From Chiloscyllium plagiosum (lineage: Eukaryota), in the NCBI RefSeq assembly GCF_004010195.1, contig NC_057719.1:32114315-32178277 (forward strand): a stretch of DNA of 63,963 nucleotides, written 5' to 3'. Below the pieces are notes generated by a model. The model saw nothing but the letters and a program-made list of their open reading frames with translations, ran no database searches and was not told the origin of the DNA. Positions 2,252 to 36,675 of the stretch are shown piece by piece; position 1 is the first letter of the stretch; the number at the start of each line of letters is the position of its first letter. Position numbers and translations under genes: made by a program.

Positions 2252-4367
2252 TGTAGGGATTCTGGTTTGGATCAGTAATGTGCTGATTCTTAGGTAGTTT
2301 GAATTGCTCTCAGATCCTGGTTCTGATACTGGACTCAGTTAAGAATGTGAAATGAAGAAGGCACTAGTCAGGTGTTTCAGGGCAAAAGAATCTCTGCATT
2401 TATTAAAGGCAATAAAACAGTGAAATAGCACAATTATACAGAGGGCAGTAATTAAATACACTATTAAATTAAACTGATTAAATAATACTATAGAAATTTA
2501 CTTATTGATACTTATTGTCATGTGTACTTTTACATGAAAAGTACAATGAAAAGTTTTAAAAGTCACCATACCTATATATTAATGTCTATATTAATGACAG
2601 AAGTCATACATAATAATAAGAAAGTAAATTTAAGGTAAATGTTTGTCACAGTTCAGTTAACAGCTCCTGGGCTCAGTCCCTGGCGCGAACGCCATGCTGG
2701 GACTAAACTGCCACACTGAGTAATTGGGGAATGGGGCTGGAAGCTGACCACCACAACAGGCCAACATGACCTCCCCGGACCAGACCGCCAAGCCAGGCCA
2801 ACACCGCCAGGCCAACACCGCCAAGCCAGGCCAACACCGCCACCCTGAACCAGACCGCCACCCCAGGCCAACACCACCACATCAGGCCAAGACCGTCACA
2901 CCAGGCCAACACCGCCAAGCCAGCCAAGACCGCTGCCCCTGGACCAGACTGCCTGCTGGGCAGCCAGAACATTCAGGAGCCAATGCCGAAGAAAACCTCC
3001 ACACGGGAAGGGGACCTCCACTCCCAGACAAGACTGCCATGCCAGGAGACCACCCCGCTGGGCTGAGACCACCATGGCAGGGAAAAGACTGTCACTCTGG
3101 ATCGCCGGAAACCACCTTGTTCAGGAAAAGCCTTCAGCTGAAGCCATTAAAAGAAGATAAGATTCATCTTGGCAATATATATATAAAGCTGGAAGCATTA
3201 AAAAGTCAGAGGAAGAAAAAGAAAAATCTTTAAGTGAGTGGGGTAGATGAGCTCAGGGCTCCTCCCACACTGCATTGCTGCTCAGCTGCCACTAAATATT
3301 GGATCCTAAACAGACACTTTAATCAGGCTTCCTACCTTGGAGTTCCCTGCACTGTCAATATCTACCTTCCCCTTCCTGCTAGTTAGATTGGATATTTTGT
3401 GGAGTTTAAGATCACCACTTGGGATAAATACAGTTTTGTAGTACAGCTGGCCATTCCCGCTTGAACACCCGGTGCCTCGATGAAGACTTAGAATGGTGTA
3501 GGCCTTCATTCTGGGTTGAATCTGCTGATGTGATAGAACATGTTTGGATCTATCTGGTGAGTACTTGATTTCTCCTTACTTTCTGGTGGATTTTGCAAGC
3601 CAGTTTTCACCCTCAGGATGTGTCTGAGGCCTTGTGGTGTCAGTCAGATTGTGGTTTTCAGAAGTAGTCGATTCTTCGGTCTGCTGATCATTGTTGGTTG
3701 CCATTGGTTTCCCTTGTACAGATCAGGCCTGTGTCAGTAGGTTTCAGAATCACTGCCAGGATTGGCTTTCCAGAGATAGCTCTTGGAAATAGCCGCTGTG
3801 ATCAGCTGTTGAAATTCCTCCTCTGGGATTTCTGTTTGGAATGCCTCCTGGAGACTAGCTGCCAGGGGATTGGTCTCAGGGAGATAGCTGTTTAGGGTCC
3901 CACTTCTGGAGAAGACTGTGGGGCTAGCTCACAGGTCGATAGCTCCTTGGGATGAGATTGGCGCCTGCAATTATGCTGATTGGGGGCCTTTGTGTCAAGT
4001 CTGCACTTGCTATTGTGTTACTGGTGTTCCCTTTGAGGTCAATTGGCTTCCTGACAGTTAAACGTATGTGTGAATATACTTTGATGAAGTTGACTGCTTG
4101 ATATTTCTGCGAATAAATTTTGATTTAAGTTGAATGTCTTGTATCTGTAGAATTCCTATTCAGTCTATGCTAGGCGTGATTGATTGTTCTCTTACAGTGG
4201 AAGTGTAAATTGGAATTTTTGGGCTCAACAGGTTCCAGACAACCATCTCTGACTGTCTATTTTTCCCTCAGGTCATCTCAGCTGTACTCTTTCTTTTAAA
4301 AGTTTTTGAAAAGCCCAGGGTTTTGGTCCAGTATTTCAGAATATGGGGATTTTTGCTCAATCTTACA
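2252..4367 (-). mobile_element. Putative solo LTR interrupted by a nested insertion (~2510-3295)
   Basis: Termini TGTAGG...TCTTACA; flanks CTTG/CTCG (4-bp TSD with one CpG-type change); minus-strand AATAAA near 2400; internal short GAGATAGCT repeats. Confidence 0.4.
2755..2935. repeat. GC-rich degenerate tandem repeat (CCAGGCCAACACCG / CCAAG units, 14-19 bp)
   Basis: CCAGGCCAACACC recurs at least 5 times; accounts for the low-complexity ORFs at 2653-3233. Confidence 0.85.
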
Positions 4368-29664: not shown

Positions 29665-31746
29665 GAGTCATAGAGACCCTTCGGTTCAACCCATCCATGC
29701 TGACCAGATATCCTAACCCAGTCTAGTCCCACCTGCCAGCACCCGGCCCATATCCCTCTAAACCCTTCCTATTCATATACCCATCCAAATGCCTCTTAAA
29801 TGTTGCAATTGTACCAGCCTTCACCACATCCTCTGGCAGCTCATTCCATACATGTACCACCCTCTGTGTGAAAAAGTTGCCTCTTAGGTCTCTTTTATAT
29901 CTTTCCCCTCTCACCCTAAACCTATGCCCTCTAGTTCTGGACTCCCTGGTCCCATATCCCTCATTATTAACCCTATCCATATCCCTCATAATTTTGTAAA
30001 CCTCTATAAGGTCACCCCTCAGCCTCCGACGCTCCAGGGAAAACAGCCCCAGCCTGTTCAGCCTCTCCCCATAACTCAAATCCTCCAACCCTGGCAACAT
30101 CCTTGTAANNNNNNNNNNNNNNNNNNNNNNNNNNNNNNNNNNNNNNNNNNNNNNNNNNNNNNNNNNNNNNNNNNNNNNNNNNNNNNNNNNNNNNNNNNNN
30201 NNNNNNNNNNNNNNNNNNNNNNNNNNNNNNNNNNNNNNNNNNNNNNNNNNNNNNNNNNNNNNNNNNNNNNNNNNNNNGTTGTAATCTGAGGTAACCCTCT
30301 TTGCTGTCCACTACACCTCAAATTTTGGTGTATCTGCAACTTACTAACTGTACCTCTTATGCTCACATCCAAATCATTTATGTAAATGACAAAAAGTAGA
30401 GGACCCAGCACTGATCCTTGTGGCACTCCACTGGTCACAGGCCTCCAGTCTGAAAATCAACCCACCACCACCCTCTGTCTTCTACCTTTGAGCCAGTTCT
30501 GTATCCAAATGGTTAGTTCTCCCTGTATTCCGTGAGATCTAACCTTACTAATCCGTCTCCCATGGGGAACCTTGCTGAACGCCATACTGAAGTCCATATA
30601 GGTCACATCTACTGCTCTGTCCTTATCAATCCTCTTTGTTACTTCCTCAAAAAACTCTATCAAGTTTGTGAGACATGATTTCCCACGCACAAAGCCATGT
30701 TGACTATCCCTAATCAGTCCTTGCCTTTCCAAATACAACTTGCCCATCACCGAGGTCAGGCTCACTAGTCTATAGTTCCCTGGCTTGGCCTTACCACCTT
30801 TCTTAAACAGTGGCACCACGTTAGCCAACCTCCAGTCTTCCGGCACCTCACCTGTGACTATCGATGATACAAATATCTCAGCAAGAGGCCCAGCAATCAC
30901 TTCTCTTGCTTCCCATAGAGTTCTCGGGTACACCTGATCAGGTCCTGGGGATTTATCCATCTTTTTGCGTTTCAAGAAATCCAGCACTTTCTCCTCTGTA
31001 ATTTGGATATTTTGCAAGATGTCACCATCTATTTCCCTACAGTCTCTGTCTTCCATATCCTTTTCCACAGTAAATACTGATGCAAAATGCTCATTTCATA
31101 TCTCCCCCATTTTCTGTGGCTCCACACAAAGGCCGCTTTGCTGATCTTCTAAGGATCCTATTCTCTCCCTAGTTACCCTTTTGTCCTTAATGTATTTGTA
31201 AAAACTCTTTGAATTATCCTTAATTCTATTTGCCAAAGTTATCTCATGTTCCCTTTTTGCCCTCCTAATTTCCCTCTTAAGTATATTCCTACTTCCTTTA
31301 AACTCTTCTAAGGATTCACTCGATCTATCCTGTCTATACCTGATATATACTTCCTTTTTCTTAACCAAACCCTCAATTTCTTTAGTTGTCCAGCATTCCC
31401 TATATCTACCAGCCTTTCCTTTCACCCTAACAGGAATACTCTTTCTCTGGATTCTCATTATCTCATTTCTGAAGACTTCCCATTTTCCAGCCGGCCCTTT
31501 ACCTGCAAACATCTGCCCCCAATTAGTTTTTGAAAGTTCTTGCCTAATACCGTCATAATTGGCCTTTCTCCAATTTAGAACTTTAATTTTTTGATCTGGT
31601 CTATCCTTTTCCATTACTATTTTAAATCTAATAGAATTATGGTCGCTGGCCCCAAAGTGCTCCCCCACTGACACCTCAGTCACCTGCCCTGTCTTATTTC
31701 CCAAGAGTAGGTCAAGTTTTGCACCTTCTCTAGTAGGTACATCGTC
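29665..31746 (-). mobile_element. CR1 (HER1-like) LINE, 5'-truncated, ORF2 from endonuclease end to 3' UTR
   Basis: GEHFGASDHNSIRF (APE end), [56 protein letters not shown]1 C-terminus; frameshifted; spans a gap. Confidence 0.95.
30109..30277. other. Assembly gap (169 N)
   Basis: Run of n. Confidence 1.
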
Positions 31747-32179: not shown

Positions 32180-32812
32180 TAGGACCACTTCCCTCTCACA
32201 GGGTGCTGCTCCAGGATTGCTCCCCCCGCACTGATCTCCATCTGGGACTGCTTCCCTCTCACAGGGTGCTGCTCCAGGACTGCTTCCCCCTCGCTGATCG
32301 CCATCCAGGACTGCTCCCCCCTCGCTGGTCTCCATCAGGGACTGCTTCCTCCTCACTGGTCTCCATCCGGGACTGGTTCACCCTCACTGGTCTCCATCCA
32401 GACTGCTTCCCCCTCACTGGTCTCTATCCAGGACTGCTTCCCCCTCACTGGTCTCCATCCGGGACTGCTTCCCCCTCACTGGTCTCTATCCAGGACTGCT
32501 TCCCCCTCACTGGTCTCCATCCAGGACTGCTTCCCCCTCACTGGTCTCCATCCGGGACTGCTTCCCCCTCACTGGTCTCTATCCAGGACTGCTTCCCCCT
32601 CACTGGTCTCCATCCGGGACTGCTTCCCCCTCACTGGTCTCTATCCAGGACTGCTTCCCCCTCACTGGTCTCCATCCGGGACTGCTTCCACCTCACTGGT
32701 CTCTATCCAGGACTGCTTCCCCCTCACTGGTCTCCATCCAGGATTGCTCCCCGCTCACTGGTCTCCATCCGGACTGCTTCCCCCTCACTGGTCTCTATCC
32801 AGGACTGCTTCC
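32180..32812. repeat. 31-bp minisatellite, left block (RGGACTGCTTCCCCCTCACTGGTCTCYATCC)
   Basis: Units start at 32461, 32492, 32523 and onward; ~17-20 copies, very homogeneous near the insert. Confidence 0.95.
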
Positions 32813-32828
32813 AGTCGCCACAACCAAC

Positions 32829-33403
32829 GGGTCTGGCTTATAATCACTCTACATGTTACCGGAACTGGGAGCCGTCAGTTCTCGTAGAGCGGTTGCCAAC
32901 AACCCACGCTCGGCGGTTAAACGTAACCCCGGAGCAGACTCCCGGGTCTGGCTTATACTCACTCTACATGTTACCGGAACTGGGAGCCGTCAGTTCTCGT
33001 AGAGCGGTTGCCAACAACCCACGCTCGGCGGTTAACCGTAACCCCGGAGCAGACTCCCGGGTCTGGCTTATACTCACTCTACATGTTACCGGAACTGGGA
33101 GCCGTCAGTTCTCGTAGAGCGGTTGCCAACAACCCACGCTCGGCGGTTAAACGTAACCCTGGAGCAGACTCCCGGGTCTGGCTTATACTCACTCTACATG
33201 TTACCGGAACTGGGAGCCGTCAGTTCTCGTAGAGCGGTTGCCAACAACCCACGCTCGGCGGTTAAACGTAACCCTGGAGCAGACTCCCGGGTCTGGCTTA
33301 TACTCACTCTACATGTTACCGGAACTGGGAGCCGTCAGTTCTCGTAGAGCGGTTGCCAACAACCCACGCTCGGCGGTTAAACGTAACCCCGGTGCAGACT
33401 CAC
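32829..33403. repeat. Five tandem 115-bp units
   Basis: GGGTCTGGCTTA starts at 32829, 32944, 33059, 33174 and 33289; each copy differs from consensus by only 1-2 substitutions. Confidence 0.98.
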
Positions 33404-33695
33404 CGAACTGGAGACTTTTCCAGGTGATATACTCTTTTCCAGATATAAACATTCATGTGAACAGCAGAGCAAGGCTAAAAAACACATTCCATTCTGGTTA
33501 CATACAGATAAGAAGATTCACACGGGGAGGTGTGTAATAAGATTCACACGGGACTAAGCAACACCTCCATTCCGGTTAGATTCACACATGTATTGGGACA
33601 TAATTTTTAACCGTTTCACCACATTCCACTGCTTGGCCCAATACATGTGTTACATTATGATTCACACATGTATTGGGACATAATTTTACACCACA
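33404..33695. promoter_or_regulatory. Repeat-rich non-coding block (U3/enhancer-like or origin-like)
   Basis: GATTCACAC x4; 29-bp direct repeat at 33579 and 33659; 14-bp inverted copy at 33637-33650; CATTCC x3; TATA-like at 33426-33449. Confidence 0.4.
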
Positions 33696-34212
33696 CCCCC
33701 TCACTGGTCTCCATCCAGGATTGCTTCCCACTCGCTGATCTCCATCCGGGACTGCTTACCCTCACTGATCTCCATCTTGGATTGCTTCCCCCTCACTGGT
33801 CTCCATTCAGGAATAGTTTCCACCTCACTGGTCTCCATCCGGGACTGCTTTCCCCTCACTGGTCCCCATCCGGAACTGCTTCACTCTTGCTGGTCTCCAT
33901 CAGGGACTGCCTCCCCCTCACTGGTCTCCGTCCAGGACTAGTTTCCACCTCACTGATCTCCATCCGGGACTGCTTCACCTTCACTGGTCTCTATCCGGGA
34001 CTGCTTCCCCCTCATTGATTTCCATCTGGGCTGCTTCCCCCTCACTGATCTCCATCTGGGTCTGCTTCCCCCTCACTGGGCACCATCCGGGACTGCTTCC
34101 CCCTCACTGATCTCCATATGGGTCTGCATATGGGTCCCCCTCACTGCTCACCATCCGTGACTGCTTCCCCCTCACTGGTCTCCATCCGGGACTGCTTCCC
34201 CCTCCCTGGTCT
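33696..34212. repeat. 31-bp minisatellite, right block (more degenerate)
   Basis: Same consensus as the left block, ~16 copies. Confidence 0.95.
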
Positions 34213-34630: not shown

Positions 34631-35256
34631 TCAGGTGATTCTGTCTCTTTTGCTGTAGCTGTGTTAGAGTGCAATGGAAACCATATTTACAGTCTGGCAA
34701 TTCTAAAAAAGTCCTGAGTTTATAAATCTCTCATCTTGCTTTGACACCCATAACTTGCTCATTCACTTCTGTGAACATTGAACACTTGAAATAGGCATCA
34801 TTAAATCACAAGATGTCATAAAGACAGTTCTCTAAAACAACCCTGTAATTATGGGTCAGTTTAATATCCATTATCAATTTTCAATATTCACTATCTCAAG
34901 CAAAAATATGATAATTGAGATTCCATTAAGCACCAATCAATATAAAGTAAATCTTGTTATATAATTGCCTAATATCATAAAACATGAATACAATTATTGT
35001 AATAAATATTCAATATATTGCCAATTACTGACTTGCAGATTAATCTTCATGTTTGTTTTGCAGTATGTATGCAGCTATATAAAACATCTCCAGCTTCTTA
35101 AAAGCATTTGTTCTGAATCAATTAACAAGTTTCCATTTTACAGGTTTAATATTGTGGATGTGTTTGTTGTTCTTTTATTCAACATACCATGACCGTCTGT
35201 CATGCCAAATACTGACATATCAAACTACAAGTCATCAAAGCAATATTCTGAAAGCT

Positions 35257-36675
35257 GGTTGGGGTATCTTTGGTTTTGGCTTGAAGGCGGCGGAGGTTGA
35301 GTAATTTCCCATAGATTCTGTAAGTTAGCTCCACTCCAGTAGGGAGCTTGTTGGTGGTGAGGTGAAGGATTGCTACCAGGTAGATCAAGAACAATATTGG
35401 GGTGATAACATAGCCCTGCTTGACATTGGTGCAAATGGGGAATGGCTTATTCATCATGACCACGACTTCCATGTTGTCGTGGAGCAGGTGAAGGGTGGTG
35501 ACATACTTCATAGTGCGACCAAAGCAGAGAAGGATACTCCATAATGCTTCCCGATTGACAGTGTCAAAGGCTTTTGTCTGGTCGAAGGGGTAGATTCTTT
35601 TCTTCAGTGAGAAATTATTCAAACTCAGTCGCCTTCATGTCAAATCCAAAGGGACCCCAACCGGTGTCATCGAGTTGCAGTACGCAGATAATGCTTGTGT
35701 ATGTGCAATCTCAGAGGATGTACTCTGGGCTATCGACAGCACGTTTGTGGAATTGGATGAGAGCACGGGTCTCACTCTGAACATGCACAAGATGAAGGAT
35801 CTCCACTAACCTGGCCTGGTGTTGTGGAGCTAACTCCCAATCATCAAGGTCCACAGGGAGATGTTAGAGAACCACATTCAATACCTCTGGAGTGTCCTGA
35901 CATCCAAACCAGCTATTGATGAAGAGATCCAGTGTTTTAGCACAGCCTTTGGCTGCACGAGGAAAAGAGTGTTTGAGAACAACAACATCAGATCCGACAC
36001 CAAGATCAGGGTTTACAGAGCTGAGTTGGTTCCCGGCCTCCTATATGGCTCTGAGAGGTGGACTGTTTACAGCAGGCACCTTCAAAGTACTGGAGCAGTA
36101 CCACCAACACTGCCTGCACAAGATTCTGTGAATCTGTTGGGAAGAAAGACGCACCAACACCAGCATCCTCGACCAGGCAAACATCTCCTGCATCGAAGAA
36201 CTGACCACCCTTGATCATCTGCAATGGACTGGGCACGTTGTCTGCATGACCAACATGAGATTCCCCAAGCAGGTGCTCTACTCCCAGCTCCAGAACAACC
36301 GACGAGCACCAGGTGGACAGAGGAAGTGAGTCAGTGATACCCTCAAAGCTTCACTGGTGAAGTACCACATTCCCACACACAACTGGGAATCACTGACCTA
36401 AGACCATCCAGAGTGGAGGAGGAACATCCGGGATGTCGTTGAGCACCTCGAGACTTGCTGTCGGGAAAAAGCAGAAGCCAGGTTAAAACAGTGAAAGGAG
36501 TGCACTGCCACACCAATGCTCCATCCTCCCTTCTCACAACCACCTTCTATCCTAAGTGTAACAGAGCCTGCGGTAGCCACATCAGTCTGTACAGCCACCT
36601 ATGGACTCACCCTGAGAGTGGAAGAGAGTCAGCCTCATCTGTGGGGGATTACCAGTAATGATGATGATGATGATG
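35257..36675 (+). mobile_element. RTE-clade LINE with inverted 5' segment, (GAT)n tail and 12-bp TSD
   Basis: Minus 35257-35595: FDQTKAFDTVNREALW...VKQGYVITPILF; plus from ~35607: VIELQYADN...KIRVYRA...LLYGSERW; ATTCTGAAAGCT at 35245-35256 and 36676-36687. Confidence 0.9.

What the first reader, a model, noticed from the sequence alone, without database searches (positions are those of the whole stretch)
32813..33695. Foreign-looking 883-bp bipartite element inserted mid-unit into a 31-bp minisatellite
Seen: the unit GGACTGCTT-CCCCC-TCACTGG is broken as GGACTGCTTCC|insert|CCCCCTCACTGG, so there is at most a 2-bp CC duplication. The insert has a 16-bp leader, five 115-bp tandem units and a ~290-bp repeat-rich block. 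It has no TIRs, poly(A), tRNA boxes or coding capacity, and I see no similar sequence elsewhere in the window. It keeps 10 CpGs per consensus unit in an otherwise CpG-depleted background, so it is very young, unmethylated or foreign. Inference: read on the minus strand it starts TGTGGTG, passes enhancer-like repeats and a TATA-like TATATC 22 nt before an Inr-like CCAGTT, then enters the hairpin-rich repeats. That layout fits an LTR with an amplified R-like region, or a promoter driving a multimeric structured RNA. The terminal CA and a 4-6 bp TSD are missing, so the LTR reading is incomplete.
Basis: partly seen in the sequence, partly recalled or inferred. Interest (0 to 1): 0.85.

Follow-up and report, generated by a model that had tools for sequence, protein, structure and literature searches.

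The report
Retroviral LTR with fivefold-repeated R segment
The insert is a cut-off end repeat (LTR) of a young endogenous retrovirus family with over a thousand copies in this genome, and a 114-base piece that most copies carry once is repeated five times here, likely through slips during reverse transcription.

Summary
It is a minus-strand, 3'-truncated solo LTR of a young ERV3/ERVL-like family with at least 1,070 LTRs in G000. Intact copies run TGT…ACA, and 46 of 60 sampled loci are solo LTRs with a perfect 5-bp TSD. Two-LTR relatives carry a tRNA-Ser PBS, and one encodes RT, RNase H, integrase and then dUTPase. This copy has lost 106 bp (AATAAA, U5, terminal CA) and 3 of the 5 left TSD bases; the right-hand CCCCC is the surviving TSD copy. 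The array is five 114-nt copies joined by single extra Gs. Three hints put the RNA start at the unit's first base (33401): TATATC at -30, marker switches concentrated there, and the extra G. The unit is therefore likely the 5' part of R, duplicated by a misplaced minus-strand transfer. The CpG richness reflects youth. No RNA family matched. The transcription start and this locus's junctions are unverified in reads.

The parts
32210..32812 (+). Left arm of the host 31-bp minisatellite (19.5 units), locus-specific
   Evidence: TRF; all 10 exact genome matches of a 25-nt unit pattern lie in this arm
32811..32812 (+). CC: likely remnant (2 of 5 bases) of the left TSD copy
   Evidence: Family TSD is 5 bp; right copy CCCCC is intact; that these are the remnant is inferred
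32813..32813 (-). One base matching neither LTR nor flank, at the deletion join
   Evidence: Comparison with intact copies
32814..32827 (-). Stub of the LTR tail (15-bp-deleted variant), cut 9 nt before AATAAA; 106 bp including AATAAA, U5 and the terminal ACA are lost
   Evidence: 130 exact matches of this variant; 30 of the 130 examined all keep AATAAA and U5; lost length
32828..33401 (-). Five 114-nt copies joined by four single extra Gs; likely the 5' part of R, with predicted +1 at 33401
   Evidence: single copy in 59 of 62 sampled LTRs; 222 exact junctions genome-wide
33426..33431 (-). TATATC, likely TATA box, first T at -30 from 33401
   Evidence: Spacing; canonical -30/-31 spacing is recalled, not from a call
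33402..33623 (-). U3 core beginning at an inner TGTGGTG LTR start
   Evidence: Module map of related LTRs; many solo LTRs start at this position
33624..33658 (-). Duplicated copy of the internal sequence that precedes the 3' LTR (env end and PPT position)
   Evidence: The same sequence precedes the 3' LTR in env-bearing copies L145-L158; 14-bp hairpin stem around it, z -1.67
33659..33695 (-). Outer LTR 5' end, TGTGGTGTAAAATT… (integrase att end)
   Evidence: Sharp shared boundary in related loci
33696..33700 (+). CCCCC, the surviving copy of the 5-bp target-site duplication
   Evidence: family TSD length
33696..34212 (+). Right arm of the 31-bp minisatellite (16.5 units, more diverged)

Best explanation
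The insert is a 3'-truncated solo LTR of a young ERV3/ERVL-like retrovirus family, whose normally single 114-nt segment is repeated five times, likely because it is the start of R and was duplicated during reverse transcription. Shown: the family, its TGT…ACA ends, 5-bp TSDs, tRNA-Ser PBS, coding relatives and the loss of 106 bp here. Inferred, in order: (1) a short non-coding LTR-PBS-LTR element, moved in trans by a coding relative, integrated at CCCCC in the minisatellite; (2) LTR-LTR recombination left a solo LTR; (3) a later deletion removed AATAAA, U5 and 3 TSD bases. For the array: (4) minus-strand strong-stop DNA, carrying one C copied from the RNA cap, landed just downstream of the unit instead of in register, giving unit-G-unit once; (5) out-of-register transfers and/or unequal exchange in the genome then varied the number from 2 to at least 18. 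The array is probably a by-product with no host function.
For: Family: (1,070 exact boundary matches). TSD: 46 of 60 loci are solo LTRs with a perfect 5-bp TSD; 6 of 9 loci with both ends found. PBS matches the 3' end of a genomic tRNA-Ser(TGA). Coding relative L051: RVT_1 2.5e-28, RNase_H 1.2e-18, rve 2.8e-18, then dUTPase 8.1e-34; no CCHC or GPY/F motif. This fits the ERV3 column of Table 1 in PMC4299795. The window's U3 is 99.7-100% identical to several copies. The most similar solo LTRs match the marker type of the short elements' 3' LTRs, while env-bearing copies are mostly the other type. Unit as R: TATATC at -30; 8 distinct discordant haplotypes in the 18 nt from -2 to +16, i.e. 44 per 100 nt against 0-10 in nine other intervals, over 109 single-unit LTRs; one extra G at each junction. 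PMC3601003 says class III R regions are long. One shared junction sits in about 49 loci among the first 100 of 222 matches (my count from the listing), including TSD-flanked solo LTRs (L003, L004, L005, L014, L097), so the duplication passed through retrotransposition.
Against: No RNA start data. A better TATA-like word (TATAAG 104, TATAAA 16) lies at each unit's 3' end, 33-53 nt before AATAAA in most copies, which would make the unit U3. Of the 8 discordant haplotypes, 3 are single-site changes, and the 5 clean switches may share ancestry. The extra G could also be a microhomology join plus a 1-nt loss. Cap copying by RT is recalled; one paper search found nothing. A CpG change shared by two adjacent units is private to this array, and two TSD-bounded elements have unequal unit counts in their two LTRs (L050, L142), so part of the growth may be DNA-level. 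The RT tree has no named ERV4, SnRV or foamy rows.
Confidence: 0.7

Rival explanations
1. Same solo LTR, but the unit is the promoter-proximal part of U3 (TATA at the unit's 3' end, short R), amplified at DNA level like ordinary U3 enhancer repeats.
For: TATAAG/TATAAA ends every unit and lies 53 nt before AATAAA in undeleted copies. Variable U3 repeats are known in LTR12 (PMC11853044). Within-array differences average 1.54 against 2.17 between arrays.
Against: The marker-switch peak, the -30 spacing and the extra G all point to the unit's first base. At least six different deletion lengths are tolerated between TATAAG and AATAAA.
Confidence: 0.2
2. The LTR is real, but the five-unit count and/or the truncated left junction are assembly artefacts from collapsed or unrolled repeats.
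For: The assembly has 101,977 contigs. Two of the longest arrays end at N gaps (L006, L019). No listed contig bridged this locus's junctions. Paired LTRs of short elements are oddly discordant.
Against: The units carry distinct variants, one private to this array. Contigs from two independent runs cross the unit-unit junction with 32/28 and 26/32 letters a side, short of the tool's 31-letter bar on one side. Multi-unit LTRs with perfect TSDs exist.
Confidence: 0.07
3. A promoter driving a multimeric structured or self-cleaving RNA (retrozyme-like), as the first reader also suggested.
For: Units fold slightly better than shuffles (z -1.68 on the minus strand, -2.05 on the plus strand). If the unit is R, the repeats are transcribed.
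Against: No Rfam match near a gathering score (7 weak hits, best E 0.22). Three other registers give z of -1.0 to -1.3. Most family members have one unit.
Confidence: 0.03

Closest known systems
ERV3/ERVL-class endogenous retroviruses with dUTPase after integrase (e.g. CrocERV41, mammalian ERVL; PMC4299795)
   Same: 5-bp TSD, TGT…ACA ends, no zinc finger, no GPY/F, dUTPase downstream of integrase, env-like ORF; RT 48% identical to a dUTPase-bearing mouse cluster
   Different: Host is likely a shark (nearest named RT is from Carcharodon, 86% over half the query). Very young copies, short non-coding derivatives, and tandemly amplified R-like and PPT-spanning modules. Catalogue status in Dfam or Repbase could not be checked.
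Human ERV9/LTR12 solo LTRs (PMC11853044)
   Same: Thousands of CpG-rich solo LTRs whose length varies through tandem repeats
   Different: LTR12 is class I, with repeats in U3 (41 bp) and U5 (72 bp) and a short R; here the repeat likely starts at +1 of R
LTR-derived minisatellites and satellites (mouse Ms6-hm in MaLR, Ctenomys RPCS; listed in PMC6947457)
   Same: A tandem array seeded inside an LTR
   Different: Here one junction is dispersed over many loci by retrotransposition, and the arrays are mostly 2-6 units
Lokiretroviruses (PMC7947760)
   Same: gag-pol-env between LTRs in non-mammalian vertebrates
   Different: No PF00523 match for the env-like ORF at E<=0.1; RT groups with ERVL-like sequences

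Membership tests
ERV3/ERVL class | 5-bp TSD | tested here: met
   46 of 60 loci are solo LTRs with a perfect 5-bp TSD, plus 2 two-LTR elements. The window copy keeps one full copy, CCCCC.
ERV3/ERVL class | LTR ends TGT…ACA | tested here: met
   Both ends scored in 54 of 60 loci. The window copy has TGT and has lost ACA by deletion.
ERV3/ERVL class | dUTPase in pol, downstream of integrase | tested here: met
   rve at aa 20-115, dUTPase at aa 190-317 of the same ORF piece of L051
ERV3/ERVL class | No gag zinc finger, no GPY/F motif | tested here: met
   Pattern search of one copy (L051): five ORF pieces and three gag frames, none found
ERV3/ERVL class | RT monophyletic with mammalian ERVL | tested here: inconclusive
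   Quick tree of 41 rows (40 of 111 hits plus the query): groups with the mouse Gm52800 cluster at SH-aLRT 96. That this cluster is MuERV-L is my inference; no named outgroups were in the tree.
ERV4 | dUTPase absent | tested here: not met
   dUTPase present; criterion from PMC4299795 Table 1
Lokiretrovirus | Env similar to fusion glycoprotein PF00523 | tested here: not met
   No such hit at E<=0.1 for the 570-aa env-like piece of one copy; its structure was not predicted
Lokiretrovirus | RT sister to all other retroviruses | not tested
Solo LTR | One LTR, no PBS or internal region, TSD on both sides | tested here: inconclusive
   No internal sequence in the window and the right TSD copy is intact, but the left end is deleted, so a 5' LTR with everything downstream deleted cannot be excluded
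Retrozyme / ribozyme-bearing repeat | Self-cleaving ribozyme motif in the unit | tested here: not met
   No Rfam ribozyme family among 7 weak hits at E<=10
Catalogued Dfam/Repbase family | Match to a library consensus | not testable with these tools

The most novel reading that the evidence does not exclude
This ERV3-like family makes its own minisatellites during reverse transcription. A cap-marked, misplaced minus-strand transfer duplicated the first 114 nt of R, and duplicated PPT junctions give alternative LTR starts, so each replication round can change repeat number. The short elements also end up with two unlike LTRs between one TSD, which would mean frequent intermolecular plus-strand transfer and would break LTR-LTR dating for this family.
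Probability: 0.25. Interest if true: 0.6.

Novelty: new variant of a known kind. Interest (0 to 1): 0.3.

Why it matters
The locus itself is ordinary: one damaged LTR among more than a thousand. The family is of modest interest. It is a very young ERV3-like invasion of a probable shark genome (nearest-neighbour LTR distance median 0.2%). If the unit is R and the junction G is cap-derived, it is a dated, countable case of a tandem repeat born from a reverse-transcription error and spread by retrotransposition. One 5' RACE experiment would test that.

Tried and rejected
Ribozyme or RNA family: none. Coding capacity: two stop-to-stop frames over the insert and 18 other window frames were scanned (20 of 54 listed). 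Only two RT fragments outside the insert matched Pfam, so no host gene context was found. Reads: the right junction was laid on X3, X5, X8, X9 and the left on X2, X5, X10, X16. No listed contig bridges either junction, and contigs read on as uninterrupted minisatellite units. These are short-read contigs, the listings are cut, and the units repeat, so this shows neither an artefact nor an empty allele. These contigs cannot show an RNA start. The env-like ORF had no real PDB match (best E 0.5), and no Atlas look-alikes were obtained. DNA transposon, Helitron and Penelope readings were dropped once TGT…ACA ends, 5-bp TSDs and a PBS were found. My earlier lean to 'unit = U3 promoter' (55/45) was reversed. 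Earlier scan findings: none. Paper searches with no result. The careful RT tree did not finish; the quick tree is reported.

Full report
Observation. The sequence is as described: 31-bp arrays at 32210-32812 and 33696-34212 flank an 883-bp insert containing a 115-bp-period array at 32828-33401. CpG o/e is 1.04 in the units and 0.22 in the window, and no second copy lies in the window. The minisatellite is locus-specific: all 10 exact matches of a 25-nt unit pattern are in its left arm.

It is a multi-copy LTR. Searching G000 with the insert gave 1,592 candidates (40 scored), many at 97-99% identity. A 21-nt pattern at the U3/unit boundary has 1,070 exact matches, a lower bound. Related copies share the window's right boundary and extend about 110 bp beyond its left one. 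On the minus strand they read TGTGG…AATAAA…AAAACA. I fetched 60 of the first 100 listed places, in order along C1 and C2, skipping most loci already held; the last two were picked for paired hits. Of these, 46 are solo LTRs with both ends and a perfect 5-bp TSD, 4 have both ends without a perfect TSD, 2 are followed by a PBS, 2 are two-LTR elements with a TSD, and 6 were scored incomplete. Of 62 LTRs, 59 have one unit, 2 have two, and 1 was scored zero. The window's tail variant has 130 exact matches. In 30 of these examined, all keep AATAAA and U5, and 28 have one unit. So this copy has lost 106 bp plus 3 of 5 left TSD bases, with one unmatched base at the join, and CCCCC at 33696-33700 is the surviving TSD copy. 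The order of events is inferred.

Parent elements. A leader search gave 67 candidates, 40 scored. Of 20 stretches fetched, most are short LTR-PBS-about 450 bp-LTR elements, and one (L051) has gag-, pol- and env-like frames interrupted by stops. The PBS form TGGCGCAGCGAGCAGGG matches the 3' end of a genomic tRNA-Ser(TGA). Five other PBS forms occur; that they match other Ser tRNAs is recalled, not tested. L051 has RT, RNase H, integrase and then dUTPase, with no CCHC or GPY/F. RT scores best against MLV-type, then foamy enzymes in PDB. It scores far higher against 111 proteins from killifish, amphibians, lungfish, birds, a ray and a shark, and against a dUTPase-bearing mouse cluster. A quick tree of 41 rows puts it beside the Carcharodon protein, inside a clade with the mouse cluster (SH-aLRT 96). 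These features match ERV3 as tabulated in PMC4299795. ERV4 fails on dUTPase, and lokiretrovirus on the env test. 'Env-like' rests on position, a hydrophobic start and a basic cleavage-like run, not on a family match. Of 84 solo or other LTRs, most are of the marker type of the short elements' 3' LTRs, while env-bearing copies are mostly the other type. The window copy therefore likely descends from the short non-coding lineage.

The 294-bp block. In env-bearing copies the 3' LTR begins right after …GGG(T/C)CAAGCAGTGGAA. The window's 33624-33658 is a copy of that junction lying between two LTR starts, with a 14-bp inverted repeat around it. Tandem runs of this module occur in many short elements, which likely explains the two alternative LTR starts.

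The array. It is five 114-nt copies joined by four single Gs that occur neither at the normal start nor at the normal end of the unit. The junction has 222 exact matches; the first 100 fall in about 49 loci by my count. These include TSD-flanked solo LTRs, so one duplication was spread by retrotransposition. Three hints place +1 at the unit's first base, 33401. First, TATATC starts at -30. Second, among 109 single-unit LTRs the interval -2 to +16 has 8 discordant haplotypes, 44 per 100 nt against 0-10 elsewhere, which is where U3 and R are joined from different LTRs. Third, an extra G is what copying of the cap would leave (recalled; the search found no paper). Against this: TATAAG/TATAAA ends every unit, 3 of the 8 haplotypes are single-site changes, and no RNA start data exist. 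Adjacent units share rare variants within arrays, including a CpG change private to the window, so later growth may be DNA-level, RT-level or both. CpG sites differ in 38 of 1,776 cells against 58 of 8,457 for other sites: the copies are young and decaying, not protected.

Artefact check. Contigs from two runs cross the unit-unit junction, with 32/28 and 26/32 letters a side, just under the tool's bar. This locus's own junctions were not bridged in the listings, which is inconclusive. The longest arrays beside N gaps may be overstated.

Side finding. In 8 two-LTR elements the paired LTRs differ at 1.6-5.6% of sites over the unit-to-end segment, 7 of them with indels. Solo-solo pairs average 2.4%, and nearest neighbours differ by a median 0.2%. 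Seven of the 8 show a TSD. Survivor bias, gene conversion, intermolecular transfer or mis-assembly could each explain this.

Literature seen. PMC4299795: passages including Table 1. PMC7947760: first quarter of the text and a term search. PMC4422223: first half. PMC3601003: passages and part 1 of section 8. Passages only: PMC2664473, PMC11853044, PMC6947457, PMC10435555, PMC6001957, PMC12440569 and bioRxiv 2024.03.25.586437. No supplements were read; the ERV lists in the supplements of PMC10435555 and PMC6001957 could already hold this family. Ten searches showed no paper describing it, which is weak evidence.

Verdict. A real but mostly ordinary damaged solo LTR (about 0.95 for LTR identity, about 0.7 for the full mechanism). 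The R-anchored amplification is a minor new variant. Interest 0.3.

Noticed in passing
L034, L035, L039, L040, L044, L046, L052 (short two-LTR elements): 5' and 3' LTRs of one element differ by 1.7-5.6% plus indels, as much as unrelated copies, although most are bounded by one perfect TSD
   Followed up: partly
L039:1955-4608, L041:1865-3757, L006: 80-bp and 63-bp units spanning the PPT/LTR start are amplified to about 20-30 copies in front of the 3' LTR core
   Followed up: partly
PBS of L033-L052, L062, L145: Six PBS forms, some looking like hybrids, suggesting priming by several tRNA-Ser types
   Followed up: partly
Internal region of the short elements, e.g. L040:1525-1990: Starts with the 5' end of gag, then a degenerate (GAATT/GAACT)n pentamer run in place of the rest of the genome
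   Followed up: no
L045, L062/L150, L145: A 3' LTR followed directly by another PBS: tandem elements sharing an LTR
   Followed up: no
window 30457-31095 and 35200-35634 (minus strand): RT fragments (Pfam RVT_1) flanking the locus, probably decayed LINEs
   Followed up: no
window 32397-32700: The left minisatellite arm next to the insert is nearly homogeneous with a two-unit alternation, unlike the right arm; likely recent local expansion
   Followed up: no
window 2757-2933: A separate GC-rich imperfect repeat with 14/19/33/56/70-bp periods
   Followed up: no
P0004 (Nothobranchius furzeri), P0007 (Tyto alba): RT relatives at 71% and 64% identity in a killifish and an owl, hinting at wide host switching in this lineage
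   Followed up: no
L010 and L018: Identical flanks and unit variants on C13 and C10: a segmental duplicate or an assembly duplicate
   Followed up: no
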